A stretch of 61,693 bases of DNA from Cyanophora paradoxa CCMP329 (GCA_004431415.1 QPMI01000153.1:1-61693); one strand, 5' to 3'; positions 1 to 37,880 are shown, counted from the first letter of the stretch. Made by a program: numbers and translations. The notes: generated by a model from the letters alone, not told the origin.

Positions 1-2
1 AG

Positions 3-119
3 AGGCTGCCGCAGGAGTACGCCTCGGCCGTGCGCTCGCTCTTCTACGGCAGCGGGCCCGAGCTGCGCGAGAAGCTCTGGCTTTACATCGAGCTCTTCGT
101 CGAGCTGACCTCGGAGTGA
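3..119 (+). CDS. 3' end of a hypothetical viral protein (partial)
   Basis: Frame 3 reads RLPQEYASAVRSLFYGSGPELREKLWLYIELFVELTSE* with GC3-biased codons. Confidence 0.5.
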   Translation, partial: RLPQEYASAVRSLFYGSGPELREKLWLYIELFVELTSE

Positions 120-148
120 AAAATATTTCTAAGGGGCAGGCGTAAAGG

Positions 149-943
149 ATGGACCCCTCGGCGATGCTTGGCTTCGAGGCGCTGGCCGTGGACGGGCCGA
201 ACCCCGTGGGAATCCCGCAGCCCGGAAGAAGGGCCGCCCCGCGAAGGAGGGCAAGGAAAAGGGGGAGAAGGCGCCGAAGGCCGACAGGATGGCGCTGCCG
301 GGCGACGGGCCCGCGGTGCCGCCGACGGCGCCGAGCAAGGGCGCGGGCTTCAGCGTGCAGGAGCACATCGAAATGACGAAGAAGAAGGAGCAGAGCGTGA
401 AAAAGGCGCTGGGAATCGACCTGCAGGAGCGGCCGCGGGACGAGGCGCAGGTGGACGTGGACGAGAAGAAGCAGGTCCTGCGACAGATCGCGCAGTACCG
501 GCGCTCGTTCGGGGGCGAGCTTACGTCACGAAGAAGCTGAGCCTGGCCACGCCGCTGGACGAGCTGAAGGAAGAGTACGAGGAGATTCAGCGCGAGCTGA
601 GAGCGCGGGTCGCTGGAGGCGGCGCGCCTCTTTCTGATCGCGGGCATGCACTCGCTGGAGCACCTGAACAAGGCGTACGATCCGATCGGCCTGAAGCTCG
701 ACGGGCTCGGCAGGCGACGCTCTCTTCGATGGACCAGGTGCAGCCGATCTTAGAGGACTGGTGATCAAGTACTCGCGCTACGTGACCCTGGGGCCCGAGG
801 CGCGCCTGGGGATGGCCTGGTGCAGACGGTGCTGGCGTGCACGCGGCGAACGCGAACCCGGAGTAATGAAGGAGGTGACGGAGGCGGCGGCCTCGACGGC
901 GGCGGAGCCCAGGGCGGTGGGCGGCAAGTTCAACGGCCTTTGA
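149..943 (+). pseudogene. DUF5767-like NCLDV conserved protein, frameshifted
   Basis: Stitched frames give KKLSLATPLDELKEEYEEIQRE...LEHLNKAYDPIGLKLDGL...PILEDW-IKYSRYVTLGPEARL. This resembles the NCLDV pattern 'LN..YDPF.LKLDGW...YEKY...PE.KL', recalled from memory. Confidence 0.55.
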
Positions 944-995
944 GTGTAAACGCGTGTAATCAATTGCACAAAAATTCACAATTTATTCGTCCGAG

Positions 996-1767
996 CTACT
1001 GCATGGGGCTGCGTACATAGACTCGGGGTTTAGGTAGGGCTCGAAATCGCCTCGTTGTCGTAGGCTTGAAGGCCAGCTCGGGGGCGCGCCCGGCGAAGCG
1101 AAAGGCGCCGACCTTGCACTGCTGCACGGCGAGGAAGGACCACTTGAGGCCGAACTTGCCCTCGGGGATGGCGTAGGCGGTGTCGATTTTAATGAGCGCC
1201 GCCACCAGGTCTCCGGTGCCGATGGTGGCGCGCTCGGTGATGAGGTAGTTGGACATGTCGACGACGGGCACGGTCTTGCGCTTGCCCGCCATCGTCTGGG
1301 TGCGGATGCGCATGTTGAGGTACTTGTAGAAGGCCTGGCCCGACTCCTTGTCGACCTTGATGCGCACGCTGGGGGTCTGCAGCACCGAGATCTGATCCTT
1401 GGAGAGGGAGCGGCCGGGCGAGACCTTGAGCTTGGCCTGGTTCTGCTGCACGAACTCGCAGAATTTCGCGTCCAGGGCCTCCAGCAGCTTGAGGAACTCG
1501 TCCGCGGCTGGTTCGTCTGGCCGTCGACGGCGCTGAGATCGGTGAGGTCCAGCGTGTAAATCCGCCGTTTTCTTCCATGACGAAGCCTTCTTCTCGTCGC
1601 TCCACGCCTTGCCTTGCTCTGTGTTGATGCACGGTTGATCGTGACCATGGGCGGCGCGTACATCATGAGGCCTGCAGGCCGTCGTACTTGGCTTGATGCG
1701 GCCGGTGCGTCGATCTCGAAGGCGAGCTTGGCGGGGTCGATCTCGTTGGCGTTGCGGACGGTGCCAT
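996..1767 (-). pseudogene. NCLDV-type OB-fold ssDNA-binding protein (gp2.5/DUF2738-like), frameshifted
   Basis: ATG at 1767 (MAPSAT../..NANEIDPAKLAFE). Later segments: YTLDLTD...EFLKLLEALDAKFCEFVQQNQ...GDLVAALIKIDTAYAIPEGKFGLKWSFLAVQQCKV, with the C-terminal 'KFGLxW...Q' OB-fold signature. Confidence 0.55.
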
Positions 1768-1879
1768 GTTTGCGTTAGCTTAGAGTGTGCTTCAGCCTAG
1801 CGCTAGAAATATTAAGGGCGCCCACCCGACTTCAGCTGACCTCGGGTGAGCGCTCAGGTGATTCAGGTAAAACACGTGT

Positions 1880-2170
1880 TCAATTCACCATCAGATCCTC
1901 TACGACGGCTACACGAATCGAGCTAATCTTGAACCTGCCTACAATGCACTTCTCTCTCCACAGTACGATCTCGTTCTTGAGGGGAGCAGTTGAATCCAAT
2001 CATACTCATCGCCTTGCGGTGCTCCGACGAAATGTCGCGAAGGAGCTTGCAGAAGTAGAACGTGTTTCGGTCGAACTCATCGTCGTATATGACGTATGCG
2101 AGATGCCGAAGGTGAGACAGCAGGTGAAGTACGTGGGATGCACATTCTTGATTTCTCTTGGCTTTGAAGT
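1880..2170 (-). pseudogene. Small hypothetical ORF, frameshifted
   Basis: Stitched AYVIYDDEFDRNTFYFCKLLRDISSEHRKAM.../LKNEIVLWREKCIVGRFKISSIRVAVVEDLMVN*; lower GC than flanks. Confidence 0.3.
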
Positions 2171-2266
2171 GTGAGAGAGGGCGCGGCGGGGCTGCGGTTT
2201 TGAGGCCGTTCAGGTGAGGTCAGGTGAGCGCTCAGCTGAGTTTCAGTGAGGCAACTTGAAAATTCG

Positions 2267-2330
2267 GCGTCATTTACGTCCGCGTCATTTACGTCAGCGT
2301 CATTTACGTCACGGAGTTGGGACTCGGCCC
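2267..2330. repeat. Three tandem GCGTCATTTACGTC units (partial copy of the control repeat)
   Basis: Directly visible; same unit as in 3117-3692. Confidence 0.9.
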
Positions 2331-2403
2331 TGGCCCCGGCCCAGGCCTCGCCCGTAAAAAAAGGACTTGGACTTGGCGCCATTTTCTAAAGCTCTGCTGT
2401 ACC

Positions 2404-2950
2404 ATGGAGCCCGCTATCTCCCAGCTAGTCTCTCAGGCGCCAAGCTCGACAAGGCCCTGAACATCTACCTTCAGCTGATCGAGCTGGCCTGGCCCGAGCC
2501 AATGATAGCTCAGGCCTGCAAATCGCTCCACGTGGCGTTCGATGCGCCGTTCTCAGTGACCCGGATCAGGTGACATCCTGGACCAAGGAGGAGATAAAGG
2601 CCGACTTCGAGGCGCTTTTCTCATTTATGAGCAAGAAGTATGCCGAAATCGAAGCAGCTAAGCCTCAGCAGCCGAAGGCGGTGAAGCCCAGCCGAAGGCC
2701 CTGCCGGCGACCAAGGCACCGAAGTTCAAGGCGCTGGGCCCCTTGCAGAGGGCGAAGGCCAAGGCGACCTGCGACCGCGTAGGCCCAAGGACATAGCCAA
2801 GGAGGCAAGCGCCACAGGCCGGACTGGCCGGCGCCGCGCCCTACCGCTACCTCAAGCTGGACAAGAGCAACGATACCGGCTTCACCAGGAGGAGTGGCCT
2901 GAGCCCTCAGGTGGCTGGAGCCAAGGGAGATCAAGGCCGGAGGCGGTATC
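2404..2950 (+). pseudogene. Hypothetical viral protein, frameshifted
   Basis: ATG preceded by ATTTTCTAAA. Fragments LDKALNIYLQLIELAWPEPMIAQACK and SWTKEEIKADFEALFSFMSKKY. Confidence 0.45.
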
Positions 2951-3039
2951 GAGCTAGCGCTAGCGCTGGCGCGGCGGCGGTGCAGACTTGGAGGAGCAGG
3001 CCCTGCTAGATACCATCAACTTGGGCAAGGTAGAGCTGT

Positions 3040-3692
3040 GATATCTAGCTAGCTAGCGCTTGCTAATTAACTCAACTGAAGTTACCTACATTTACTGAAG
3101 GGTTGCGGAGGTTACCGAAGGTCGCGTCATTTACGTCAGCGTCATTTACGTCACGGAGTTTGCCGGCGACTCGGACTCGGGCCCAACTTCTCCGGTAAGT
3201 TCGAGACTTGGAAAAATAGGGTATCCCTATTACTTATCGTTATTATTATTACTATTATCGTTATTCACATTGAATGAATGCTTAAATCTATAAAAGCTGT
3301 ACCAGTATCGGTGGCTACTAGTACTAAGCTAGTAGTACTAAGTAGTACCAAGTAGTACTAAGTAGTACTACGTAGTACTAGCGGTACTAGTAGCTACTGG
3401 TCGTGACGAACTTACCGGGAGAAGTTGGCCCGAGTCCGAGTCGCCGGCAAACTCCGTGACGTAAATGACGCGACGTAAATGACGCGACCCTTCAGGTTAA
3501 TTAATTAAGCAAGCGCTAGCGCTAGCTAGCTAGATATCGATACCACCTAGCTAGTAGCACTAGGACACTAGGACACTAGGACACCGGGGGTACCCCGCCG
3601 AGTTCAAGTCTCGAACTTACCGGGAGAAGTTGGCCCGAGTCCCGAGTCGCCGGCAAACTCCGTGACGTAAATGACGCGGACGTAAATGACGC
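3040..3692. repeat. Long inverted repeat (about 3040-3210 vs 3407-3538) around an AT-rich AGTACT-repeat core, plus a third copy at 3605-3692
   Basis: GCGTCATTTACGTCACGGAGTTTGCCGGCGACTCGG...CTCCGGTAAGTTCG and its reverse complement. The core carries (AAGTAGTACT)n-like repeats. Confidence 0.9.
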
Positions 3693-3759
3693 AAATCCAT
3701 TGGAGCTACGTTCGCACACTCCGGACGCCTCCCACAATTTTCCAAGGTACCCAGCAAGC

Positions 3760-3960
3760 ATGGACTTCACCGATTGCGCAGGTATCAAGCAGGAGCCTGA
3801 GGACCTTCTCACCGCCGCCGCCTCGGCGCCCAAGCAGCGCCGCCGCCGCGGGCCCAAGTCCCTCTGCTCCGAGCCCGAGATCCTGGCGGCTCCGGCGCGC
3901 GGGCCGGAGACCGTGGACCTGACCCTGGAGGAGCCGGCGCGCGCCCGCCGCGCCTTCTGA
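3760..3960 (+). CDS. Small hypothetical protein (MDFTDCAGIKQEPED...), basic KQRRRR stretch
   Basis: ATG after AATTTTCCAAG; ORF 3700-3960. Confidence 0.4.
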   Translation: MDFTDCAGIKQEPEDLLTAAASAPKQRRRRGPKSLCSEPEILAAPARGPETVDLTLEEPARARRAF

Positions 3961-4056
3961 TCCTTGCGGCGGCGGCGGCCGCGCTCTACTACGCCGCCCG
4001 GCGCCTGGGCCCGCAGCTCTCGGGCCTGGTCCGGAACCTTTTCTAAGTCTTGCCCA

Positions 4057-4397
4057 ATGGAGGCCCTGCTAGATCTCATGGCCTTTGCGTTGCCCATCTT
4101 CTTCCTGGTAGGCCTCAGCCGCATGGAGCGCGAGGCGCGCCAGCCCGAGCGCGTCGAGCGCGGCCTCACCCCGCAGAGCAGCGCAACCTCACCGAGTGGG
4201 ACCTGGCGCTCATGGCCGGCCGCATGCTCGACGGCAACCGGCTCGAGCCGGGCCACCGCCTCAAGCTAGAGGACGGCGGCACGGCCCTCTGGGACGGCGA
4301 GGCCTGGAAGCACGATTCGACGGGCGAGCCGATGAAGCTGCTCGCCTCCGGCAACAAGTACTGGCGCGGCGACTCGATGGAGTTCCGGCGCCCGTGA
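4057..4397 (+). CDS. Small protein with N-terminal hydrophobic anchor, frameshifted
   Basis: MEALLDLMAFALPIFFLVGLSR... joined to LTEWDLALMAGRMLDGNRLEPGHRLKLEDGGTALWDGEAWKH... Confidence 0.5.
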
Positions 4398-4443
4398 TTG
4401 CTAGTGATTTTCTGGTCCTCTTCTACCCTTCTACCAGCAAAGA

Positions 4444-4726
4444 ATGCCCGACCCCTCGCCCGACCCGCCGCAGGTGCCGAGAGCGCGGGCAGCTCGGACG
4501 AGTACTCCGAGCTCACGGATCCCGACCCCGACGAGCCGGCGACGCCTTCGCGACGGAGAACGAGCGCTCCCTCATGCGCGTCTACGAGGCGCTGCGCGAG
4601 GCGATCTACTGGGAGGATCCCCGCCTGGGAACCCTGATGAACTTTGCAAAGTTCGCCGAGTTCATGTTCGCTATGACCGTGCCCTTCACCCGAGTCGTGC
4701 TCTGGGATAGGAACAGGAACTGGTAA
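4444..4726 (+). CDS. Small acidic NCLDV-like hypothetical protein, frameshifted
   Basis: ...DAFATENERSLMRVYEALREAIYWEDPRLGTLMNFAKFAEFMF, similar in pattern to small conserved algal-virus proteins. Confidence 0.45.
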
Positions 4727-4752
4727 AGCATTGAATACAACAGTACAGAGCC

Positions 4753-5127
4753 CTACGAGCTAGAGCTGCTATCGCCCGAGTCCAGGCGCGCCTTCTTGGC
4801 CTTGGAGCGGCGGAGGCGGGAGACGTACTGCAGGCGCAGGTTGCGCACTAGGAGCTCGCCGGCCGTGGTGCCCGGCAGCCCGGGAACCGAGTCCGTGGGC
4901 AGCAGCTGTCCCTCGCGTATCGCCTTGTACGTCTTGCGCTTGTTGAATGCAACCTTCTCCGTATCCTCCGCGACCGGGACCTCCAGCGCCAGCGCGCGCT
5001 TGGCCTTCTTGGTGGAGACTGCGTTCGCACGCTCCAGCTTCACTCCGGGCTCCAGGGGGGTAGGGGCGACTGCGTTCGCCACCGGGTTCTCAGCGAAGGA
5101 AACACGGGGGGAAGAGCCGCCGCGCAT
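4753..5127 (-). CDS. Basic hypothetical protein, 124 aa
   Basis: Intact ORF with ATG after TATTTTCTAAAG. Confidence 0.55.
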   Translation of the reverse strand: MRGGSSPRVSFAENPVANAVAPTPLEPGVKLERANAVSTKKAKRALALEVPVAEDTEKVAFNKRKTYKAIREGQLLPTDSVPGLPGTTAGELLVRNLRLQYVSRLRRSKAKKARLDSGDSSSSS

Positions 5128-5139
5128 GGTTCGCTCGCT

Positions 5140-5541
5140 TTACCTAGCCTTTAGAAAATAGTCGAGCTGGGCGCTCTGCAGGCGCGCGCCCTGGTAGGCG
5201 CCGCGCAGCTGCCACGCGAGCCAGATCGCAAGGAGCACGGCGGCGACGCCGGCGGCGATCTTGGCGTAGTGCCAGCCCTTCATCGCAAGCTCCGGCACGG
5301 CCGCAACCGCCTGCCCGACCTTCACGCCCGCGGCGCCCGTCCGATCGATTCCCGTCAGCGTGCTGCCGAGTGCGCCCGCGGCCACGTCGGCCCAGGGAAG
5401 CTTGCCGTCGTTCTTTAGGATGAGCTCGTTGTTCTTGCGCTCGATCGTCGTGCTGATCGCCGCGGCCAGGTTGAAGCTCGGCGGCGGCTGCGCGCTCTTC
5501 GGTCCGAAGACCTTGGTCAGCACGGCGTCCACCCAGCCCAT
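5140..5541 (-). CDS. Small membrane protein (MGWVDAVLTK..., C-terminal TM helix)
   Basis: Intact frame; hydrophobic IAAGVAAVLLAIWLAW. Confidence 0.6.
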   Translation of the reverse strand: MGWVDAVLTKVFGPKSAQPPPSFNLAAAISTTIERKNNELILKNDGKLPWADVAAGALGSTLTGIDRTGAAGVKVGQAVAAVPELAMKGWHYAKIAAGVAAVLLAIWLAWQLRGAYQGARLQSAQLDYFLKAR

Positions 5542-5567
5542 CTTTGACCTAGACTTCGAAAAACTAT

Positions 5568-6040
5568 CTAAATGACCAGGCCGCGCAGGTACCAGACCAT
5601 CAGGAGCGAGCCGCCCAGCGCCACCAGCAGCGGCAGGTGCCCGTCCACGGCGCGCCGCATGCGGTTGTCGCACAGCTCCTGGCAGCTCAGCCGGTTGGCC
5701 TCGTCGAAGTAGGCGCTCACGGCGTAGGGGCGGCGGCCGGCGGGTGCAGCCCCGGCCCAGGCACGGGTAGGCCTCCGCCTGCCGCCGCGCGGCCAGCGCC
5801 GCCGTCGCCGCGTGCGCCGCCTCCCTCTGCCCCGGCGCGATCGCCACGAGGGGCAGCGCCCCCACGCTCCTGCCCTTGCCCGCCCCTTGATCGTTTTCAG
5901 CGACGGCGGCGCGGATCCGCCGCCTTCACCCTGGCCCCTCCGCCGCCGCCCGCCTTAGCCCTCGCCGCCTCGCCGATCTTGCTGCATCGCGAATCCGATT
6001 TGAACACGGTGCACAGCAGCTTCTCTACCGCGCTCGACAT
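5568..6040 (-). CDS. Small Cys-containing membrane protein, frameshifted
   Basis: MSSAVEKLLCTVFKSDSRCSK...RLSCQELCDNRMRR...PPLLVALGGSLLMVWYLRGLVI*. Confidence 0.45.
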
Positions 6041-6070
6041 CTTCGAACGTGTAACGAGAATGAAGAAAAT

Positions 6071-6322
6071 TTAAAAGGGAACGCCAACGGACTCGGAACT
6101 CGGAAAAGGGGAGGGGAGAATGAACTTTGAAAAGTTAGCGCCCGGCGGGGCGCATGCCGGCCGCCGCCTGCGAGGCGCCGCCGGGGCGTAGAGGGACTTG
6201 GCGGCGTAGCCGAAGCCCACGCCTATGACCGCCGAGGCCGTGGGGGTGCCGCCGAGGAGCCAGGTGAGGGTCGCGGCGAGGGCTCCTAGCGAGTAGTGGG
6301 CAGGATAAGCTTCGAAGGCCAT
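6071..6322 (-). CDS. Small hydrophobic protein
   Basis: MAFEAYPAHYSLGALAATLTWLLGGTPTASAVIGVGFGYAAK; 3' end uncertain. Confidence 0.5.
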   Translation of the reverse strand: MAFEAYPAHYSLGALAATLTWLLGGTPTASAVIGVGFGYAAKSLYAPAAPRRRRPACAPPGANFSKFILPSPFPSSESVGVPF

Positions 6323-6370
6323 CGCGGGACCGAATTGAGGGAGGGTTGAGAAAAAATACCGCCTCGGGCC

Positions 6371-9300
6371 TCAGTGGTGCAGGTGCCGGAAGCGCGCGTT
6401 GTCCTCGGCCTCCTCGCGCGCCGCCTGCTCCTCCGCCGCGTCGATCTTTGCCCGCGAGGCCTCGCGCGCCGCGGCCGACGCGTAGTCCTTGAGCACGGGC
6501 ACGCGCCGGTAGCTGTAGCCGAGGCCCTTCGCCAGCCCCGCCGACTCCGCCTCGAACGCCCGCCAGCGCTCCGAGGCCTCCGCCCCGGCGATCTGGCCGG
6601 CGCGGAAGCCGGAGTCCAGCTCGGCGCGGAAGGCGATGGTGGCCTGCAGGCGCTGGGCCCAGAGGCCTGGCGCCGCTCCTCCGCCTCGCGCGCCTGGCGC
6701 GCCGCCAGCGCCTGCCGCTCGGCCTCCTGCTGGCCCCGAAGCCCTGGATCGCGGAGAGGACGGCGCCGGGGCCGGGAGGGGCTGGGCCGTCGGCGCTCGC
6801 GGAGGAGGCCGAGCTCCCGTAGCCGCTCGGCCCGCGCCGCCGTTCGTCGGGGTACCCTGCCCTTGGATCAGGAGGGGGCGGGGGAGGGGGGTACGGGAGG
6901 GAAGGCGGGGGTACGCGGGCCGGACCTGGCGCGGCAGCATCTCGTCGATGCGCTGCTGGCCGGGGCGCTGCTGGGGGCCGTGGCGGGGGCTGGGCGGGAG
7001 GAAGGCCGGCGCCGAGTTGCGGGTGCGCTTGCCCTTGCCCTTGGTGTGGGGCTTGACGAGGAAGGGCCCGACGTCGGGCGCCGGGTCCTTGAACTGGGCG
7101 ACGGGGATCGCGATCGCCTCCAGCGCCGGCTGGCTCTCGCCGAGGGAGAGCGGGGCCTTGGGGACGATGCCGCGGATGTAGTCTGCCAGACGCCGCCGAG
7201 CTTGTAGGAGTAGGGGCGGCACCAGGAGCCGAAGCCGGCGAGGGTCTCGTCCAGCCGGCCGTTCTCGATGTCGGCGCCGACGGCGGCGGAGGTGTCGGGC
7301 CCTCCGTGCGCGCGATGTACTCGACGATGCCCGCGACGCTCGTCATGTAGCCCTCCGTGTTCGGGCGGCGACGTAGGTGGTGGGGTCGACGGCGCAGTGG
7401 GCGATGATGAAGCGGGTGAGGGACAGGAGGCCGTCTCCTGCCAGAAGCCGAGGCGCTGCGCCCGCAGCCACGCCGGCTCGAAGGCCTGGATGCAGGAGGC
7501 CTTGCCGTCGGAGAGCGCGTGGATGATCTTCCACGCGAAGGTGAAGGCCGCGACCATGAGCGCCGGCAGCTCGTTCTCGCGGATGTCGGAGTGGAGGTAG
7601 GTGCGCTTCTTGGCCGGCTTGTGGTCGAGGGGGATCAGGACGACGCGGGCGAAGAACTCGAGCATGCGGTTCTCGAGCTGCGCCGGGGCAAGTGAGAAAG
7701 GGCGCCGGGAAGGGGAAGGGGGGCAGGGGAACGGGCGCACCTGCGGGAAGCTGTTGCAGACGATGACAAGCACCTTGCGCGTCGCCTTGGTGCGCACATC
7801 GTCGCCGCGGACGTTCTTGAAGTTGCGGGAGTAGGCGTCGCCGGAGCGCATCTTGAGCTCCTCCTCCGAGCAGGCCTTAGGGTCGAGGCCCTCCGCCATC
7901 ACCATGCAGATCGCCTCCTCGCCGCCGTGCTCCGAGAAGGCCGAGCCCTTGGAGGGCGGTAGACGCAGACGCGGCCCGGCGGCAGGCACTCCGTCATGAT
8001 CTGCGTCACCATCGACTTGCCTGTGCCCGACTGGCCCTTGATGATGCCGCAGTACTGCAGCATGGCGCCCTCGGACGGCGGCTCGATCTCCGCGCGCGGC
8101 TCCCGGTCGAGACGGGCTTGTCGCAGAAGTTCCACGGCCCGACGAGGTTGAAGGCGTAGAGGACGGCCGCCGCGTAGCCGAACTCGTCGGCCGTCACGTA
8201 GCCGTTGTCCGCCAGGTGCTTGACGACGTTGGGCATGAAGGGGTGCAGCATGCCGTACACGGTGGGCCAGTCGCAGGTCTCGGTCGCCTCCTCGATGCCC
8301 GCGGCAGGCGCCCCTGGATGTAGCAGGTGTTCATGTAGCCCGCGTACCGCTCCCGTGCCTCCTCGTGCGTCATGACGAGGACGCAGGCGCTGCCCGTGCT
8401 GTCCTGCGGCGCCCGCACCACGAAATCTGCGCAAGGGGCGTCGGCGGGGGTACGGGGCGGGGCGCAGGGTACGGGCGGCGCACGCGTGTCGCAGGCGAAG
8501 GCGAAGCCGGGGATGACGGGCATCTCGGGGCAGACGTCCTCGAGCTGGAGGGACTCCTCCACGAACGTGCGCGTCGCCCGAGAGCACCTCTTCGAGAAGG
8601 TGAACTCGAAGGAGCCGGGGTTGGACTCGTAGGTCTTGTGGAAGGTCATCGCCAGCAGCTGGATGACCTCCTTCATCGTCCGCGCCCGGCGTGCCTGTTC
8701 GCGCTGACCTTGTCGTACACGAAGAGGTTCGGGAGCTCGACGTAGAAGGTGGGCGGGGAGTTCGGGCCGTAGGGTCTCTGGCGCACGATCCGCTGCGCGG
8801 CAAAAGGGGTTAGCGGGGTTCGAACGCGGGGAGGGGGGCGCACCGGCCGAAGGCGGCTCGGGCCCAGCGCCTTAAGCAGCTGGGCCACGGCCGCCTCCGG
8901 CCTCTAAGGGGCGGGCGCGCAGCTAAGGGGGCGGGGCGCACGTTGTTCTTGACGAAGAGGCGGAGCGCATCCTGAATGGCCGCCTCCTTCTTGGACTTGT
9001 TGTCCTTGCTGTACGTTGTCACGTCGTCGTACTTGGACATGTCGATCTCGGGCGCCTCGCGCGGCTGCACCGCCAGCTCCGCCCGCGCCAGCTCCAGCCT
9101 GGTGGCGCGCGGCGGCTCGCCGTCGCTCTCCGACGCCTGGCCGTCGTCGTGGTCCGCCTCCGCCTCCGCCCGCTGATCGCGCAGCAGCTGCCGCTCGCGC
9201 TCGCGCCGCTGCTGGGCCGGCGGGAGAGGCGGCCGCGCGGGGGCCGGAGGGGGCGGAGGGGGCATGTGGCCGAGGGAGGAGGCGGCGTGGCGACGGGCGT

Positions 9301-9801
9301 GCCCGCGGCGGCGAGGGATGGGCGGGCGAGGGGGTACCTGGACGGAGGGCGGCGGGCGCTGCGAGGGCTGCGAGGGGCGAAGGACTGAAGGCCGAGGGTT
9401 GCCGCTCGGGCGCCAGGAGACGTCGGAGGCGGCGGGCTGGCGGGGGCACGGGGCGGGCGGGCGGCGGGGGAGACGAGGGGCGGCCTGGGCCGGCGTCGCC
9501 GGGCTCGTCGTCCGAGAACTCCTCGATGGGCGGCGGCGGGCGCCGTCGAGGGAGGGGAGGGCGGGAGGGGTAGAACTCGTCGACGGGGGCTCGGGCTCGA
9601 AGGTGTCCCCCGCCCCGCCTCCACCGTCGCCGCCAGCTCCGCATCGGGCTCGCCCTCGCGCTCGCGCTCGCGCTCCAGCTCCATCGCGTACTCCTCCGCC
9701 ACCTCCAGCTCGCGCGAGGCCTTCGCGTCCGCCGCCGCGCCAGCGCGGCCTCCATCTCCATCTCGCGCTCGCCTCCAGCTCCTCCTCTGTGGCAGGGTCA
9801 T
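6371..9801 (-). CDS. D5-like superfamily 3 helicase, multi-exon, with low-complexity N and C extensions and frameshifts
   Basis: Walker A GQSGTGKS (8013-8036), degenerate Walker B (CMVMAE), motif C VIVCNSFP and Arg-finger region FARVVLIP. GT-AG introns at about 7678-7740, 8427-8483, 8793-8843 and 8904-8941. Confidence 0.65.
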
Positions 9802-9829
9802 TCCTTTGCGCCTCTGGAACGCCCTAGGC

Positions 9830-11486
9830 TCAGAAATTAGGGCGGGGAGGGCGCACCGGCCGCCTTGGGGCCGCCGCCTCCATCTCCTCGCCGAGATCGC
9901 GCCGCGCCGCCGGGGCACCCGCCTCCTCCTCCTCGAACCGCAGGTCGATGTAGGCGCCTTGCCCTTGCCTTGCCCTTCGCCTGGGCCTGGGCCTGGCCAC
10001 GCGCATGGCGCGCGCGAGGCCTCCGCCGTGATCATGCTGCCGCCGGCCCGGGCGCCCGAGGCGGAGGCCGTCGCCTCGCCGATCGCCGCCTGGAAGGCCG
10101 CGGCCATCGCCTGGCCGGCGCGCGGCAGGCTCCGCGCCCGCTCCAGCTCCTCCTCCGTGAAGTCCAGCGCCCGGGCCGCGGCGGCGGCCTCGGCCTCGCG
10201 CTCCGCCTCGGAATCCGAGTCGGAATCCGAGGACTCCGCGGCCGCGAGCATGGGCGGGGCGGGAGGCGGCGGCGGCGGCGGCGGCGGCCGCCTTGTCGAA
10301 GACGGGGACGAAGAAGGTGAGGGCGAGGGTGCGCCGCGGCACCACGTACTTCACGGCGCCGTGGATCATGGGCCGCCCGTGCGAGTCCGGCATCGAGCAC
10401 CGGCGGATGACCTGCGAGGGGTTTAAATGGCATCTAAATAGTCTAAATAGCATCTAAATAGCATCCAAATAGAAACGGCGCACCTGCACGCGGTCGCCGA
10501 TGGTGACGCCGGGCACCTCGAACTCAGGAACCAGGTCGAAGGCGCAGATGCCCTGGCGCCCGTGGCGGTCCCGGCACGTCCGGCAGGCCGCCTCCAGCAC
10601 GATGCGGATGGCGTAGGCGTCGGTGAGGACGCCGGTGTCCGGCCGCTCGCCCCAGACCGCCGAGCTCTCGTGGCGCGTGATGAACGCGCGGCTGTTCCGC
10701 ATGATGCAGCGCGCCTCGACGCCCATGATGCCCTTCGCCAGCCTCTGCGGGCCGGCGGGGTCGGCGGGAGGGCGGCCGCGGCTGCACGGGCGGCCGGGGG
10801 CGCACCTCGGGCGTGTAGGCCGGGTCCGAGCTGAGCACCAGCAGCCAGAGCAGGTGCGGGGCCGCCTCCGCCATGCGGTTGAAGTAGAACTCCTCCGGGC
10901 CCGCCAGCAGGCCAATCGTGCGCCACTCGCCCTTGGCGATGTGCCGGGGCACGGCGCCCATGAGCAGCCGCAGGCGCTGCGCCGCGAACAGCCGGCGGGC
11001 GTCGGAATCGCGCCCGGGCTTCGGCTTGCTCGGCGTGTCGAAGTTCTCCTCCGTCATGTTCAGCGCCGCGTGCATCGCCCGCACGTCCGCGTCCTGCGAG
11101 CGCGGCGGCGCCTCAGCCGCTGCGAGCCGGGCGCGTGAGGGAGAAAGAGGCAGCGAGCACCTCCGCGAGCCGCAGCCGCGACAGGACGGAGTCGATGGAG
11201 AACTGCACCGACGGGCCGGGGCACCCTCGGCGTTCAAAGTCCGCGCCGCGGCGAGCTTGCGCTTGCGCTCGGCCAGCTCGGTCTTGCGCAGCACATCCTT
11301 GCTGCTCGGGCTGAACTGCATGCCATCCTCCAGCGCACGCGCCTGCGCCTCCTTCGCCTGGTCGCTGATGCCGGCCTCGAAAACCGTCCAATCGACGCCG
11401 AAGCTGTCGCCGACGCAGAGAACGTCGTACAGCGTGTTCTTCGCCAGCTTAGCCGGGATCTCCGGAGGGAGCGCGAGCCGAGACAT
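9830..11486 (-). CDS. Hypothetical multi-exon protein within the element
   Basis: Coding-like segments (MSRLALPPEIPAKLAKNTLYDVLCVGDSFG..., IVLEAACRTCRD) separated by GT-AG introns, one containing CATCTAAATAG-like tandem repeats (10430-10472). Confidence 0.5.
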
Positions 11487-11789
11487 GCTGCTGCCGCCGA
11501 TGCTGCCGCCGGTGCTGCGCGCGCTCTGCTGGGAGTGCTGCGCGCGCTGCGAAGGTTCTGGCGCCAAGTTCCCAGCCGATTTGAACGAGCGGCCTGCATT
11601 GCATCGCCGGACTGGGCAGTCAAAAAAAAGCGAGAAACCGACCGGGGTTCGAGCCCAAGGGGGGTACGCATTTTGAGGGGGGGGAAGCGGGCTTCAAGTC
11701 TGAGTCTTCGCGAGTTGGGGAGGGAACAAGCCAGCGGGGTACGACGTTGAACGGAATCCGTTGAGACATCGCGGGCAGTAACACTCGCG

Positions 11790-14700
11790 ATGCAGGCGGC
11801 GACCTTCCGCTCGTGCGCGAAGCAGCAGCAGCCCGGCGAGCAGGACAGCATAGCCCGCGATCTCGGCAGCCTGTCGGCGGAGGAGGCGCTCAACGCGATG
11901 ACCTGCGATAGCGTGTTCAACTCGGCCGGCGTGCCGCGCTTCGAGCCGTTCGGCGGGCTGAAGAAGATCCAGAACACGGACGGCCACCCGAAGCGCTTGA
12001 AGACCAAGGGCCAGTTCACGCCGGTGAATAAGTTCAACGAGGTTCGCGGTTTCGCCCGCACCGCTTCGGCCCCGGCTCACATGCCCGGCTCGCGTGCCCC
12101 GCGCGCAGATCGTGCCTTACAGCATTCACGAGCTGCCGGAGCATGTGAAGGCGAAGTACGGCTTCACGCACGGCGATGTGGCGCTGTTGCTGATGTCCGA
12201 CAATGCGGCGGCGGGCTGCTTCAACAGCATCGCGCTCCATCGCGATTTCCATCCGCGCGCGATCTTCTCCGGCACTCCGGAGCAGAAGGAGTTCTCGCGG
12301 ACCTCAAATCCGGCAGCGGCGGCGCCCACGGGGTGAGGGCCCTTCCCTGCGCTCGCGTGCCCGCGCTTGCTCACGCGCGGGCCGCTGCAGCTCTTGATCG
12401 CGCGGGATCAGTGCCTGGCGTCGGTGACGGAGAAGGAGAAGGCCAGCCCGTCCGGCCTCGGCGTTCGGTGCGATTACGTCATCGTCACCAAGCGCATCAA
12501 CCCGACGTACGCCAAGAAGTACGACCTCAACTTCGTCTACGTGAAGGAGGGGCCGCCGGCCTCGCAGTACACCGTCACCGTCCAGGCCGGCATCTGCGCC
12601 GGCGAGACCATCCAAGGCGCGTACCACGGCGTCGGCACGCTCCCGTCCGGCGGCTTCTTCGACGTCGTTGATCACATGTTCCTCTCCTGCGCCGATGACA
12701 TTTACGTGCGCGAGAGCCCGCCCTTTCCCCTTTCCCCTGCCCTGCGCGCGCTAAGGTCGCGTCCGCAGGTCGGGGAGAACCGAGCGCGGAGAGCCCGCTG
12801 GGCTACGCGTACTGGCTGGTCAGCGTGCAGAAGGTGCTCTCCTGCGCGGCCCTTCTGAAGTACGCCAGCGTCTGCGACTCCGGCATGCGGCCCCAGCTCC
12901 AGCTTCTCGTGGATCAGGGCCGGAGCGACGAGACCCGCCAGCGCCACCGCGATCTCGCGCGGACGGCCGTGCTGAAGCTGGAGGAGGTTCTGCGCGAGGG
13001 CCACCAAACGGGCCGGCCCGCGCCCGTGAGATCCTCTCGGCGGCCATCTCCGTGATCGTCGGCGAGCTCTCGCACACGGTCCGCCGCCGCCCCGCTTAGC
13101 CCGCCTCTCCTCCCTGACCCGGGCCCTCGGAGCGCAGGAGGAGTCGGACGTTCTCACGGCGCGGGCGGACGAGTTCCAGCGCCAGGCGGAGAAGATCAAG
13201 TGCTGGTACGAGAAGGTGAAGAAGGCGGAGGAGACGGACCTGCGCGACTGGGGCAGCAAGAGCGGCGACGCCGAATTCGACCGCGACAAGCTCAAGCGCG
13301 TCTTCTTCTGGATGCGCATCTGCGCCAAGCTGGAGGCGCTGATGGACGAGTGGCACATCGAGGGCGTCCGTCTGGCGAAGGCGATGATCGCCATGGAGTG
13401 GGCCACGGCCACCCGGCGCGCAAGGAGTGCAGCATGCTGGCCAAGGAGATCGGCCGCCGGGGCCGCTACATCAAGGAGGTGGCCTACGGCATCGAATGTG
13501 CGTCCGCCCCGCCCTTGGCCTGCGCCCCGCCCTTGGCCTGCGCCCCGCGCTCTCCCGCTCACCCCCTCTCCCGCAGTTACCATCCCGCTCGTCCAATTCT
13601 TCCAGCGCGAGTTTGTGCTGATCCAGGCCTCCATCATCAAGATCGGGTCGCTCTCCGCCAAGGAGGTGGACGAGGCAAGGGACGAGGGCCAGGCGGAGGC
13701 GGAGGCGCGCTGGGACGATGCGGCGTTCAGCGCCGTCTGGGGCGTCGGGGACAACGCGCTCTCGCCCCCGCCCCGTTCGGCTTCAGCGGGCGGCCCGCGC
13801 TGGCGTTCGACGAGCACGGCCTCCCCGAGCTGGCGGAGGCGGACGCCGTCGGCTTCAACTGGGCGACGTTCGAGGCCCGCATCGACGAGAAGGCGAAGGA
13901 GGCGCAGATGCGGCTGCTGGAGGAGGCCTCGTCCCGGCGCCGGTGCCCGCGCCCTTCCCCCTTCCTCTCCTCCTCGGCCCCTCTCACCGCCTCCTCCAGC
14001 CCCCGGCGTCCTCGGCTCCGGCGCCCTTGGCTCCGGCGCCCTCGCCCCGGCCCTCTGCCCCACCTACGGAGAGAGGTGCGCCCACGGCGCCGATTGCGCC
14101 CTCAACGGCTCCCACCTCCTGCCCGCCAAGAAGGCCCGCCTCGGCCTCTTCTCACCCCACCCTCTCAGCCCGGTGAGTGACTCTGAATCGGAGGGCTCGG
14201 AGGCCTATAGCACGCCCCGCGACCCGACGCCCCGCCCACAAGGCCGGCGCCTTCGGCTTCTGTGAGTGACGCCCCGCGCAGGCCCTGCCGACGCCGCCCG
14301 TCGCCAACCGCACCGTCTTCGTCCAGGTGAGTGCCAGGGCTGCCGCGAGTGGCGGCTCGAGAACTTCTCGGCTCAGGTCCCCGCCACGCAGCAGGCCGGC
14401 GCGATCCGGCCTCGCCGCCCGTGACCGTCGACGTCGAGGGCGGTATGTTCGAGATGGAGCTGGAGCCGGCGCCCTCGCAGGCCCTCGCCACCCAGGGCTC
14501 GGCCCGGGCTCGCCGCCGCCGTCCCAGCCTCCTCCCGCTGGTGCACGCCAACTCCAACATCTTCGAGGGCTGCTGAGGCCCTGAAACGGTGCGCGCAGGC
14601 CCGTCCCGCCCTCCCAGAGCAAGTGGTCCACAACGCCATAGTGGACGCCATGTGGGATAACAGGGGCCGCCTCCCCACCCTTCCGCTACGTCTCTATGGC

Positions 14701-14800
14701 CCTCCGCGGCCTCGCCTTCCCGCCCCCCTGCACCGAGCAGCTCAACCAAATCCTGCGCGGTCTGATTCATTACAGACTCGCCTACCCGGCCTGGGCCTGA
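11790..14800 (+). CDS. Large hypothetical multi-exon protein within the element
   Basis: Successive coding-like exons (MQAATFRSC..., IVPYSIHELPEH..., CDYVIVTKRINPTY..., KRVFFWMRICAKLE...) bounded by GT..AG; 3' end uncertain. Confidence 0.5.
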
Positions 14801-14904
14801 GCTACACCAAGCTACGGTGAGTCCGACCAAGCCCTGTCCCGGGTCCCGGGAAAATTTATATTAAGATTCCAAAGACCTGGACAGAAGTAGTCTGACCAAG
14901 AGAC

Positions 14905-14955
14905 GTGTCCGGACCCTCCCAATAATCATATAGAGTATTGGAAAGGTCCGGACAC
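14905..14955. terminator. Stem-loop between convergent genes
   Basis: GTGTCCGGACC...CCAATA..TATTGG...GGTCCGGACAC abutting the YqaJ stop codon. Confidence 0.5.
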
Positions 14956-15620
14956 TAGAGGAGGGCGTACGACTTAAACTCGCGCAGCGCCGCCTGCTCC
15001 TCGCTGAGGTTCTCTGACTTCATTCGATCGCTGTAGGGCTCGGGCGGCGTGCCCTCCTTGACGTGCATCCAAAATAGATGTAAGCACTTCCTCATGAGCT
15101 TGATGTACCTCTCGTCCCGTCTGACGTACCACGTTTGCACGCGCAGAGGAGTGAAGCAAAAAAGTTCGGCCCACTCGCGGCCCGTTATGTCCAGCAGGCC
15201 CTGGAGCTGGGGCATGTAATAAGTTGGGACCTTTTCGTAGAGTTCTTGTTTGTAGGGGCATTTTATTTCAAGTATACGATCGCTTCCAATCAGCCCGTCC
15301 GGGCTGCCCGCCAGGAAGGGCAGTTCCTTATGTTCGTGCAATCCAGTATGTTGCACGTCCACGTTGTTGTTCGACGTTTTGTAGAGAGAGACCGCGAAGG
15401 GCTCATAGTCATGCCCGTAGGTTAGCGCAGGGTTGTCGAAGTTGTTTTCCTCCGCTATGCCGCTTAGCTCCGCCCAGAGGCGGGCCCTGGATTTCCAGGG
15501 ATTTATGCCGCACGCAGCCGCAAAGTTCGAGGCAGTTAGCTTTTCGCGGCGCGCCGCGTGCCACGCCGCGCTCCCCTGTTGCAAGTTCTCGCAAGTCTCG
15601 CAATCTGTATCGGTATGCAT
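14955..15620 (-). CDS. YqaJ-like viral recombinase / lambda-exonuclease family nuclease
   Basis: QGSAAWHAARREKLTAS, YGHDYEP, FLAGSPDGLI, LEIKCPY and YYMPQLQGLL motifs. Intact, intronless and lower GC. Confidence 0.93.
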   Translation of the reverse strand: MHTDTDCETCENLQQGSAAWHAARREKLTASNFAAACGINPWKSRARLWAELSGIAEENNFDNPALTYGHDYEPFAVSLYKTSNNNVDVQHTGLHEHKELPFLAGSPDGLIGSDRILEIKCPYKQELYEKVPTYYMPQLQGLLDITGREWAELFCFTPLRVQTWYVRRDERYIKLMRKCLHLFWMHVKEGTPPEPYSDRMKSENLSEEQAALREFKSYALL

Positions 15621-15670
15621 GACTTGGTCTCGCAGTAGCGTTTAGAATTTCTTGATGTGTGCAATTGCAA

Positions 15671-16375
15671 ATGTCGGATGCAGAGGAAGCGCCCAAGGAC
15701 GTGATCGCACAGTTCATAGATCAGGTCAAGGACCTTAGACGCTGGGTGGTAGAGCAGGCCTCGCGACCGAATCGACAGCGCCAACCCTGGCCGGTGCTGG
15801 AGCTGGCCCGGGCAGGGTGGCTGGACAGCCATTACAACTATGGCGGGGCCTCATACGTCCGGAGCCACGACGAGGGCAGGATTATCGACGAGTTCAAGCG
15901 CATCTGGTTCGCCCTGGGCTCCAAGCTCAGCATACTCTCGACCCTCCGGACCACATTCGCATGCAAATCCTCGAGCGGTACGCGAAGGCAAGGGACTCGG
16001 AATGGGACGACGTAAATTTGCGCGACCTCTCGCGCTTGCGCTCGGCTGTGACGGCGTACGTCACGAACTATGAGTATCACACCAAAAAGCCCCAATTCGA
16101 AGTTGAGCCGATTCCGGCAAATCTGGTACCCCTGGGCTGGGAAGAGTACCCGAGTACTCGTGGAACAGGGGCCTCAACCCCCGGCGCCAGGCCCTGCCAG
16201 CCCCGCCCGCCCCACCGATAAACGCCCCCGCCCACGTGACGTCGGGCGAGACATACGCGAATGGGAGGAGTGGAGCAACGACCCGAAGAACTGGCTACCC
16301 GAGGAGGCGGAGATGCGCAAGCGCGCGAGGCTGATGCCCGGCTACAAGTACCCGACCGCGAGTAGGGGTACAGGT
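15671..16375 (+). CDS. Hypothetical protein, frameshifted
   Basis: Three overlapping coding-like frames starting MSDAEEAPKDVIAQFIDQVKDLRRW. Confidence 0.45.
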
Positions 16376-16401
16376 AGAAATTCTCAGCGAGCCGCGAGCG
16401 A

Positions 16402-17115
16402 ATGTCGTACGGCGATCAGGAAGCATGGTTCAAGCTACACCGCCTCTTTCCTGATAAATTCGGCAATGCGCGCTACCCCTCAACCTAATGACGCGAGTCA
16501 ACCGGCGGACGAGGGACTTCAAAATCGAAGTGTTCTCTTCCTCTCCCGAGAGCGGCCGCTCCGCGGACAACGACGCTATGGCATGGCTGTACGGCTTTGT
16601 GCAGCCTCGGGTTGGTACTAGCCCGGCCACAGTCGAAATAGAGAGCTACTACAACGATTACGGGCCGCAGGGGGGTACGGGACGCCCGAGCAGAATAACG
16701 CGATGCGGGGGTAGGCAAAATCATGCTGCGGGCGGCTGTGAACGCGCTGCAACGCTCCGGGCTCATTAGCTCGTCGGACCCGGGCCAGCACCCGTTGGAG
16801 CTCAGGGCCCTCCCAGACGCAGTGGATTACTACCAAAGGGAATTGAACCTGCGTGAGAGACAGGTCGACTATAGGCCGTCCCTAATACCCATGGAGGGTA
16901 CAGTGCAGAACATCATCGACAACACGTACAACGTGGCCGTTCGCTGGCGCAAAGCGGCGGCGGATCTCGTAAAGGGCAACTACAGGGACCTCGCAAACGA
17001 AGACAACCCCGTGGGGGAGTACATGGAGCTGGCAAGCGGGAGCATCGTACCCCGCCGGAGGCCCCCATGGCCCCACCCCGACCTCGAGTGGGGACCGTCT
17101 CACTTCGGCCAGTGA
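16402..17115 (+). CDS. GNAT-fold acetyltransferase-like protein, frameshifted
   Basis: (R)GVGKIMLRAAVNAL matches motif A and LELRALPDAVDYYQREL matches motif B. Confidence 0.55.
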
Positions 17116-17399
17116 GGGGGTACAGCATTCAGTTAGAGTCTGAGCATAGTTAGAGGCCGGAGGCCCCGAGGGGTACGTCGGACGTGTTAGTCCCCGTGCC
17201 TCCCCGAATGCAATATAACAATGCAACCTCCGCAACGCGTGACTCATCAACCTCCGAGGGTTAACAATACATTGACAGCGAAGGGGCAAGCTCGAGAGCT
17301 CAACGCTTCACAAAGGCCCACCTATATACTTGCCGCAGTGCAAGGCACTGTGACAAGCTAAAAGTGCACGGGGTGAAAATTTCGCATTGCAAATTGCCA

Positions 17400-18340
17400 C
17401 AACACACGTGTACGAGTTATTCCAAAATTCAGCTTAAAAAGCTTGAGCTTCAGCTCAGCCGCTGAGCTGCGGCTGCCTCAAGCCTTGAAGCCGCTGAGCG
17501 GCAGGGCGCCGGCTTACTAGATTAACGTTAGTACTGATCATGACCACCCGCGCCGAGATCATGATCATGACCGTCGGACGCGCCGAGATCAATGACTGAT
17601 CTTGACTCTTTCAAGTTTGCGCATGCGCATGCTATCTGAACACTTCATGATCATCACAGAAAAGCTCGCAATTGCAAATGCAATTGGCAATTGCAGCTGC
17701 TGCACGCATGCAAGCTTAAGCTGCCGCAGTGCAGTTGTCACAATGTAATTTGTATGGTCCGATGGTCACTAATTATAACTAGTAATCACAAGCATGATCA
17801 TGATCATGATCCGAAGTTCAACTTTGTGTAATTGGAAACTCTGATCATCATCATGGCATGGCATCATGGCATGATCATGACATGTAATTATATCGGGCGA
17901 AACTTGAAAGCTAATTATATGTATAAGCCTTCAAGGCTTGAAGTCAAATAAGTCTCATGATCATGTGATCACTGAGCCCGGAGTCATGATCATGATCAGC
18001 TGCAGAGTCTGGGAAGCCTTGATCATGAAGCCTTGCTTCAAGATTCAATGATTGCAATTGATGAAGCCAGCTTGAACTTCCGAAGTTCGGAAGCCTCGCG
18101 ATATATCATATGCATGAAGCGGCCTTGATCATGAAGGCTGAATTTGAAGCTCGATATATATATATATATATATATAATAATTACATAACTATATATAGCT
18201 ATAGCTTTATATGTATACCTACATGTAGAAGCTAGCGCTTCGACTAGCTCTCGCGGCGATCGAATTCCGGTCCGAAACTAACACGTACTCGTAATTTTAA
18301 ACTTGAAACTTTGCATATGCATTTCGAGTTCGAAATTTAA
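17400..18340. repeat. AT-rich low-complexity tract built of short palindromes (TGATCA/TCATGA/AAGCTT/GCATGC, (TA)n)
   Basis: Directly visible; no ORFs in the ORF track. Confidence 0.8.
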
Positions 18341-18560
18341 AGCCCTTTTTTGTGACGGGGGTACAGTGACAAGGGTTGTTTGCGAAGAGAACGAACAAGA
18401 AAGGGCGAGCGCTAGCACTGTGATTAACTATAGCTAGTGAGCTACAAGCGATTTTGCAGCCCTGATACTTCGACTCCGAACTCTGCCACTGGGCTACAGA
18501 TTAGCTGGCAGCCCCATCGTCGAGCACCTGGCCGATCGGTCGCCTACTACAGGTCGCTGA

Positions 18561-23143: not shown

Positions 23144-23286
23144 CGCTCACGAGGAGGGCTCTCCAAAGTAGACTCGCCGGGATTCGAAGGTCGGACCGAC
23201 GGGGGGATGCGGCTTGACAGGGGTACGAGGGCTGCTGTCTGTTAGTCCCGACTCGACCGCAGCAGAGCGGTAAACGATAAACAGCC

Positions 23287-37761: not shown

Positions 37762-37880
37762 CCTTCGGATTGCCCGTCCAAGGGAGGGGGGCCCTGGGGG
37801 GAGGGGCAGAGCTGGGGTACGCAGCCTCGGTGCGGTTTCAGGCGCCGGCTCGCACGCTGGGCCGCCCCTGACCAGCGAAA

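What the first reader, a model, noticed from the sequence alone, without database searches (positions are those of the whole stretch)
1..17150. Endogenous small Nucleocytoviricota-related virus in an algal (probable glaucophyte) genome
Seen: tightly packed ORFs including YqaJ exonuclease, SF3 helicase, SSB-like, DUF5767-like and several small membrane proteins, with common upstream motifs. The cluster ends abruptly at a low-complexity tract before host genes. Known: this gene set is typical of NCLDVs and their small relatives (Yaravirus/mriyaviruses). Inference: part of an undescribed viral lineage. Capsid, ATPase and VLTF genes should lie to the left of the window.
Basis: partly seen in the sequence, partly recalled or inferred. 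Interest (0 to 1): 0.82.

Follow-up and report, generated by a model that had tools for sequence, protein, structure and literature searches.

The report
Dwarf provirus with spliced replication genes
This is the right-hand 17 kb of a virus-like element repeated dozens of times in the genome of the alga Cyanophora; it is likely an integrated small relative of giant viruses, and, unusually, its predicted helicase gene and a neighbour carry host-style introns while most of its other genes carry a likely viral promoter motif.

Summary
Bases 1–17,328 are the right part of a multicopy element in Cyanophora paradoxa. Gene models of four of its genes lie on 53 contigs in a conserved order, and read depth is about 30–75 times that of the flank. 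The element ends at 17,328, where at least 8 different flanks join the same end, so mis-assembly with a free virus is unlikely. Its T7-gp2.5-fold SSB and YqaJ/PDDEXK nuclease, and more weakly a DUF5767 and a PEV_20-like gene, match marine gamadviruses (Mriyaviricetes). A motif learned from those viruses precedes 10 of 14 intronless ORF starts tested. There is also an internal 500-bp palindrome. No capsid, ATPase, VLTF, RuvC, HUH or integrase gene was detected in the window, and my capsid test was inconclusive. A preprint already reports mriyavirus-related regions in a glaucophyte assembly, and this scan found gamadvirus proviruses twice on other DNA of this genome. Verdict: new variant of a known kind.

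The parts
1..17328 (.). Right part of a multicopy gamadvirus-related element; it runs off the left edge of the window
   Evidence: Depth 30-75x that of the flank contig; conserved gene order on other contigs
3..118 (+). C-terminus of a gene like gamadvirus cluster c17 (PEV_20 by gene order, inferred)
   Evidence: HMM E 0.005; tblastn hits in 10 of 52 loci, best E 4e-4
149..943 (+). DUF5767-like gene (Mriya_48 by gene order, inferred), frameshifted in this assembly
   Evidence: Three pieces hit the c18 HMM, best E 1.3e-4; c18 is DUF5767; motif score 14.6 bits
996..1767 (-). T7 gp2.5-like ssDNA-binding protein (PEV_26 type)
   Evidence: (E 3.6e-19)
1800..2160 (-). Orphan ORF upstream of the SSB; two sequence versions occur among copies
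   Evidence: N-terminal extensions of fused gene models; no Pfam hit
2267..3692 (.). Repeat region: 15-nt tandem units at 2267-2311, 3124-3153, 3458-3488 and 3664-3692; imperfect palindrome 3040-3538 with a 10-nt tandem array at its centre; candidate origin or fused termini (inferred)
   Evidence: DNA fold of 3030-3700 is -198.5 kcal/mol, z -20
2404..3040 (+). Orphan ORF, frameshifted, preceded by the viral motif
   Evidence: no Pfam hit for three pieces
3760..6322 (.). Cluster of about 7 small intronless ORFs (3760+, 4057+, 4444+, 5127-, 5541-, ~6041-, 6322-), several with hydrophobic stretches; 4444+ resembles gamadvirus c23 only weakly
   Evidence: (c23 E 0.06, c19 E 0.3; reversed decoys reached E 0.007, so leads only)
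6371..11486 (-). ~1,500-aa gene with a C-terminal D5/DUF5906-like SF3 helicase; 8 GT-AG introns of 57-149 nt
   Evidence: two contigs of the probable RNA run stop at predicted donors 11160 and 7741
9800..9839 (-). Viral-type motif (14.4 bits) inside predicted helicase intron 4, 38 nt before an ATG
   Evidence: 2 of 24 models read this ATG in the helicase frame and 1 in another frame
11790..14800 (+). Divergent orphan gene with about 8 GT-AG introns; shares a ~30-aa segment with the N-terminus of the helicase protein
   Evidence: Spliced joints matching introns 13943-13999 and 14327-14391 in run X15; tblastn 50% over 32 aa, E 2.7e-4; no convincing Pfam or PHROG hit for the exons scanned
14901..14953 (.). 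Hairpin just past the YqaJ stop; candidate transcript-end signal (inferred)
   Evidence: z -8 for 14835-14955
14955..15620 (-). YqaJ/PDDEXK nuclease, intact
   Evidence: gamadvirus HMM E 7e-52; up to 128 bits to gamadvirus ORFs against 57-87 bits for the 8 phage records listed of 320
15671..16363 (+). Orphan ORF, frameshifted
16402..17115 (+). Terminal 238-aa gene; possible GNAT acetyltransferase fold (lead only)
   Evidence: model pLDDT 41; more than half of the 50 rows are acetyltransferase entries, but Z is only 3.7-4.9
17299..17328 (+). Right terminus of the element, ending in a TATA-like run
   Evidence: At least 8 different flanks leave at 17328-17335 across 4 runs
17329..18560 (.). Host intergenic, AT-richer low-complexity DNA at flank depth, followed by intron-rich host genes

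Best explanation
The stretch is the right-hand part of one copy of a family repeated dozens of times in C. paradoxa, likely an integrated gamadvirus-related mriyavirus, whose genes fall into two classes: short intronless genes with an upstream motif shared with marine gamadviruses, and two divergent genes (a predicted SF3 helicase and an orphan) split by host-type introns and lacking that motif. Shown: many copies, conserved gene order, one sharp end, homology of SSB and nuclease to gamadviruses, the motif, and spliced contigs in a probable RNA run. Inferred: host RNA polymerase II and the spliceosome express the helicase block from the integrated state. The motif genes would be switched on later, probably through virus-encoded VLTF2/3. 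The helicase, SSB and nuclease would replicate the DNA together with a host polymerase, possibly from the internal palindrome. An end-specific enzyme would have inserted the copies; none was detected in the window, and an HUH nickase encoded elsewhere in the element is my guess.
For: SSB models on 35 contigs, helicase models on 23, and four gene families on 53 contigs. SSB and helicase lie within 10 gene numbers on 9 of the 10 contigs that name both, and the order matches the window on 5 of 5 contigs with three families. Depth is 30-75x the flank contig. At least 8 flanks join one end. All 51 loci fetched with an SSB relative carry an A32-like ATPase, 50 a VLTF3, 49 the nuclease and 24 an MCP within the fetched span; Pleurochrysis endemic virus 1a MCP is among the hits of their MCP profile. 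A motif trained only on those loci scores 9 bits or more before 10 of 14 intronless starts, against 0.3% of random host and 2.2% of random element 60-mers; the two intron-bearing genes score -5.8 and -10.5. The same exon junctions recur in most paralogous models. Spliced joints were listed only for the probable RNA run. Punuivirus shows a similar two-class layout.
Against: No MCP, ATPase, VLTF, RuvC, HUH or integrase was detected in the window (HUH and integrase only by Pfam/PHROG scans), and no Cyanophora protein was among the 120 of 435 MCP hits shown. The helicase shows no similarity to the one gamadvirus-contig helicase-like protein I could compare (hhalign probability 0.5%). Nuclease and SSB are 244-811 nt apart in 47 of 51 gamadvirus loci but 13 kb apart here. 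The intron block is at about 30-37x while the left end and the terminus are at 50-75x, so some copies differ there. The introns in other copies are gene-finder predictions. Run X15 is only guessed to be RNA, and contig depth cannot rank genes, so no early/late timing was measured. Many one-base shifts break ORFs in this copy; pooled short reads carry the extra base at the listed places, which points to assembly error but does not prove this copy intact.
Confidence: 0.65

Rival explanations
1. The intron-bearing block (about 6,360-14,800) is a separate helicase-encoding element that entered an ancestral provirus and was amplified with it; the virus proper is intronless.
For: It separates nuclease and SSB, which are neighbours in 47 of 51 gamadvirus loci. 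It has lower depth than the ends. Contigs leave the window sequence near 14,700. It has no homologue in the 52 loci searched.
Against: Two helicase subtypes (about 69% and 88% identical to the query piece) both sit 6-9 gene numbers from the SSB. A gamadvirus-type motif lies inside a helicase intron. Mriyavirus helicases are exchanged often (PMC11253617). The fetched loci reach only 10 kb either side of the SSB and mostly miss the helicase region.
Confidence: 0.15
2. A capsid-less, virus-derived replicon or satellite that kept replication genes and a few structural-module genes and spreads within the genome or borrows a capsid.
For: No virion core gene was detected in 17 kb. The MCP link is untested. 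Other notes of this scan describe capsid-less elements in this genome (unverified).
Against: The window begins in the PEV_20/Mriya_48-like pair, which in gamadviruses follows the minor capsid, VLTF3 and ATPase genes. A preprint places glaucophyte regions in a Mriyaviricetes MCP tree.
Confidence: 0.1
3. Dead relics: an old insertion gained introns while decaying and was multiplied by host segmental duplication.
For: Spliceosomal introns in nucleocytoviruses are described mainly for decaying endogenous elements and a few nuclear-phase viruses (PMC12768974). This copy has many frameshifts.
Against: Different flanks follow one precise end, whereas segmental duplication would copy the flank too. 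Paralogues are intact and near-identical. Short reads carry the extra base at the listed shifts.
Confidence: 0.07
4. Mis-assembly joining a co-cultured free virus to a host contig.
For: The junction contig holds only 30 element bases, one short of the tool's 31-base bridging rule, and no listed piece spans the whole stretch. Free copies could add to the depth.
Against: The same junction contig occurs in 4 of 4 runs at flank depth, at least 7 other flanks exist, and gene models lie on 53 contigs.
Confidence: 0.03

Closest known systems
'Gamadviridae' (Pleurochrysis endemic viruses, Phaglo-G), class Mriyaviricetes; PMC11253617 (parts 1-4 of 7 read, plus term search)
   Same: T7-like SSB (PEV_26), PDDEXK nuclease, DUF5767 and PEV_20-like pair in the same order, an SF3 helicase in a long protein, no polymerase detected in the window, and a shared upstream motif.
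   Different: SSB on a separate long branch; nuclease and SSB 13 kb apart; helicase unlike the one compared; spliceosomal introns; dozens of integrated copies. The paper's main text has no occurrence of 'intron', 'integra', 'promoter' or 'endogen'.
Mriyaviricetes-related viral regions in a Glaucocystophyceae assembly; bioRxiv 10.1101/2025.04.19.649669 (passages and section 10 read; figure and supplements not seen)
   Same: Probably the same host group and the same kind of element.
   Different: That survey states that introns were not considered. The text I read gives no ends, copy number or gene classes.
Punuivirus, latent giant endogenous virus of Chlamydomonas reinhardtii; bioRxiv 10.64898/2026.10.09.758095 (passages, including part of the abstract)
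   Same: Intron-bearing host-like genes beside intron-poor genes with a viral promoter.
   Different: Punuivirus is a 506-gene giant virus with measured latent and lytic expression. This element is far smaller and multicopy, and its timing is unmeasured.
Giant-virus endogenous elements of C. paradoxa; PMC12344493 (passages and section 9 read)
   Same: Reports methylated clusters of Nucleocytoviricota-like genes in this genome.
   Different: Not assigned to mriyaviruses (0 occurrences of 'mriya'); no element anatomy in the text read.
Intron-rich mirusviruses; PMC12768974 (passages)
   Same: Nuclear DNA viruses with spliceosomal introns.
   Different: A different realm; introns there are enriched in virion genes, while here they lie in the helicase block.

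Membership tests
Mriyaviricetes / 'Gamadviridae' | Double-jelly-roll MCP in the mriyavirus clade | tested here: inconclusive
   Not detected in the window; no Cyanophora entry among the 120 of 435 hits shown; left flank unavailable
Mriyaviricetes / 'Gamadviridae' | A32 ATPase, VLTF3, VLTF2, RuvC, minor capsid | not testable with these tools
   No hit at E 0.5 or better in the window to profiles c0, c3, c32, c20, c10; expected to the left by gene order
Mriyaviricetes / 'Gamadviridae' | HUH endonuclease (duplicated in gamadviruses) | not testable with these tools
   None recognised in the window by Pfam or PHROG scans; no HUH profile was available from my loci
Mriyaviricetes / 'Gamadviridae' | PDDEXK nuclease | tested here: met
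   HMM E 7e-52; 30-41% identity to the nuclease of gamadvirus loci
'Gamadviridae' | T7 gp2.5-like SSB (PEV_26) | tested here: met
   HMM E 3.6e-19; Foldseek 1je5, E 1.5e-7
Mriyaviricetes / 'Gamadviridae' | Mriya_48 and PEV_20 | tested here: inconclusive
   Hits to c18 (E 1.3e-4) and c17 (E 0.005); the names are assigned by gene order only
Mriyaviricetes | SF2 or SF3 helicase at the C-terminal side of a larger protein | tested here: met
   Atlas 0.97 to DUF5906/D5-type clusters; Walker A at residue 1005 of 1519
'Gamadviridae' | Helicase of the SF3_hel2 group | tested here: inconclusive
   No similarity to the single candidate available, L049, whose own group is unknown
Mriyaviricetes | Genome of 35-45 kb without DNA or RNA polymerase | not testable with these tools
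   Only 17.3 kb seen; no polymerase detected in it
Yaraviridae | Closer affinity to yaravirus proteins than to PEV proteins | not tested
   No yaravirus sequences were compared; the SSB is listed as gamadvirus-conserved in PMC11253617
Polinton-like viruses / Mavericks | RVE integrase or tyrosine recombinase, pPolB, terminal inverted repeat with target-site duplication | tested here: inconclusive
   No such gene detected in the window; the left end is unseen, so terminal repeat and duplication could not be checked

The most novel reading that the evidence does not exclude
A dwarf Nucleocytoviricota lineage that lives as a temperate provirus. It inserts at a fixed end without an integrase, probably through its HUH nickase. 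It keeps a host-disguised, spliced replication module running while integrated, and holds its motif-driven virion genes for reactivation. It would be a miniature, multicopy version of the punuivirus programme in a culturable glaucophyte.
Probability: 0.35. Interest if true: 0.75.

Novelty: new variant of a known kind. Interest (0 to 1): 0.5.

Why it matters
Mriyaviruses are proposed as the closest small relatives of giant viruses, but only yaravirus is isolated, and integration genes are described as absent from the group (bioRxiv 10.64898/2026.06.19.733378). Dozens of near-identical copies with a precise end in a culturable alga make three open questions testable: how these viruses integrate, whether they use host polymerase II and the spliceosome, and what the shared upstream motif does. 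The introns also mean that prokaryote-style gene calling would fragment such helicase genes.

Tried and rejected
Scans for close relatives found nothing for the SSB in viral and metagenome contigs or for the terminal gene in metagenome contigs. The YqaJ scan gave one 26% locus. The MCP search was crowded by marine gamadviruses, so it is inconclusive. The 15-nt repeat unit has 76 single matches in IMG/VR and no tandem array, so it is uninformative. The last 80 nt form no significant hairpin (z -0.5 and 0.2), so a Helitron-like subterminal hairpin was rejected. PDB sequence searches with the helicase and terminal-gene alignments gave nothing below E 0.3. Foldseek on the low-confidence terminal-gene model gave no match at E 0.001. 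The idea that gamadvirus helicase 'frameshifts' are introns could not be tested, because only the same contig came back. The careful SSB tree did not finish; the quick tree has long branches meeting at the Cyanophora clade, so no sister group is claimed. No YqaJ or helicase phylogeny was built. No run on record as RNA was listed; X15 is a guess. In the motif test I included one antisense frame (2382-, -6.8 bits); the count is 10 of 14 with it and 10 of 13 without. The starts came from ORF lists and gene models, chosen after I had seen AT-rich spots. Sequence look-ups in earlier findings were empty. Six literature searches showed no description of introns or precise ends in mriyaviruses. I read listings and passages only, and unseen supplements could contain such a description.
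Full report
Host and copy number. A search with the SSB-like ORF returned 20 clusters, 18 of them gene models of one eukaryote, named as Cyanophora paradoxa. A piece of the helicase returned 24 models on 23 contigs. Two small genes and the terminal gene have clusters of 13 and 8 members. In all, 53 contigs are named. SSB and helicase lie within 10 gene numbers on 9 of 10 shared contigs, and the order matches the window on 5 of 5 contigs with three families. Short-read contigs give 30-37x the flank depth over the middle, and 50-75x at the left and at the right end. These figures are estimates: the tool warns that depth is not copy number, and free copies would add to it.

The end. Depth falls to flank level after about 17,330. 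One contig starting at 17,299 runs into host DNA in 4 of 4 runs, and other contigs leave at 17,328-17,335 into at least 7 other sequences. That contig holds only 30 element bases, one short of the tool's bridging rule, and junction detection differed among runs, so 8 flanks is a lower bound. Beyond the junction lie intron-rich host genes: LRR, rhodopsin, pyruvate kinase, HLH-PAS and purH (9 of 46 frames scanned gave these families; two more hit TSNAXIP1_N and a second purH piece). The last 80 nt form no notable hairpin.

Affinity. An intact SSB paralogue folds like T7 gp2.5 and ASFV CP312R, and its Atlas neighbours are Nucleocytoviricota DUF5871/DUF2738 clusters. A profile search gave 33 more distant, unnamed relatives. 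A cluster-mate of one of them fetched 51 IMG/VR loci that carry NCLDV-type MCP, A32 ATPase, VLTF3, A22 resolvase, DUF5767 and YqaJ. Their MCP profile retrieves Pleurochrysis endemic virus 1a, and their gene order fits the gamadvirus table of PMC11253617. Of 29 profiles built from these loci, the window matches SSB (E 3.6e-19) and nuclease (7e-52) strongly, DUF5767 (1.3e-4) and c17 (0.005) weakly, and two small genes only at decoy level. It has no match to MCP, ATPase, VLTF or RuvC. In a quick tree the Cyanophora SSBs and two unnamed close relatives (88% and about 70% identical) form a long-branch clade apart from the marine ones; its position is unreliable.

Two gene classes. A motif (consensus WWWTTCYRA) learned from 347 upstream regions of the marine loci alone scores 9 bits or more in 85% of them, before 10 of 14 intronless starts here, and in 0.3% of random host 60-mers. 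The idea of testing it against marine relatives came from earlier finding e1-10581672. The two long genes that diverge from 11,487-11,789 lack the motif. The minus-strand gene maps to a 1,519-aa paralogue through 8 GT-AG introns, and the seven junctions checked recur in 8 of 12 to 15 of 15 informative models, although those models are predictions. Its C-terminal half resembles DUF5906/D5-type SF3 helicases but not the one helicase-like protein on a gamadvirus contig. The plus-strand gene has about 8 introns and no known domain in the exons scanned. In run X15, which the tool only guesses to be RNA, contigs skip 13,943-13,999 and 14,327-14,391 and stop at the helicase donors 11,160 and 7,741. 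One strong motif sits inside helicase intron 4 before an ATG, so a shorter motif-driven helicase form is possible, or the model fuses two genes.

Other anatomy. Nuclease and SSB are 244-811 nt apart in 47 of 51 marine loci but 13 kb apart here, in the same order and on the same strand. Between them lie a ~500-bp palindrome with repeated 15-nt units (z -20), the small genes and the intron block. The terminal 238-aa gene may be a GNAT acetyltransferase, on a poor model only. Many one-base shifts break ORFs in this copy. At the 12 places listed, short-read contigs carry one more base, nearly all of the depth at some of them. Assembly error is the likely cause, but reads pool all copies.

Mechanism. 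My best reading (0.65) is a temperate gamadvirus-related virus. Host polymerase II and the spliceosome would express the helicase block, and the motif genes would form a virus-controlled late set. Replication would use helicase, SSB, nuclease and a host polymerase, and an end-specific enzyme, perhaps an HUH nickase outside the window, would insert it. Timing, particles, the origin and the integrating enzyme are all inferred. The main rival is that the intron block is a nested passenger (0.15).

Novelty. A preprint reports Mriyaviricetes-related regions in a glaucophyte assembly without considering introns. PMC12344493 reports viral gene clusters in C. paradoxa, and Phaglo-G is an earlier gamadvirus-like scaffold in a haptophyte assembly. 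Two unreviewed notes of this scan describe gamadvirus proviruses elsewhere in this genome. The two-class layout is known from punuivirus. In six searches I did not find introns or a fixed integration end described for a mriyavirus; supplements were not seen. Verdict: real, a new variant of a known kind, interest 0.5.

Noticed in passing
window 5516-5589 (+): A GT-AG joint on the plus strand in the probable RNA run X15, antisense to the small genes at 5140-5541 and covering that gene's upstream region.
   Followed up: no
window 6286-6359 (-): A joint in X15 fits a minus-strand GT-AG intron just past the helicase stop; it removes the motif and start codon of the next small ORF. Read-through transcripts may mask the motif genes.
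   Followed up: partly
window 14675-15341: Summed depth is about four times that of the neighbouring block and contigs leave near 14,700, suggesting a sister family that shares the nuclease end but has another middle block.
   Followed up: no
window 11326-11408 and 13842-13924: An inverted 83-nt repeat (76%) encodes a shared ~30-aa segment in the two divergent intron-bearing genes.
   Followed up: no
window 2240-2401 and 17160-17248: Other copies skip or replace these stretches, so the repeat region and the sub-terminal region vary among copies.
   Followed up: no
proteins P0002 and P0004: Unnamed public contigs of about 3 kb encode SSBs 88% and about 70% identical to the Cyanophora one, so close relatives exist in other assemblies.
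   Followed up: partly
window 23246-23767 (+): Host gene with a microbial (bacteriorhodopsin-like) rhodopsin domain, E 1.9e-10.
   Followed up: no
window 37872-40537 (+): Host gene or genes with an HLH domain followed by PAS_9 (LOV-like) domains; a possible light-sensing transcription factor.
   Followed up: partly
L049 (IMG/VR): A gamadvirus-like contig with rearranged order: MCP, a 1,038-aa P-loop protein next to the SSB, and the nuclease downstream of VLTF3.
   Followed up: partly
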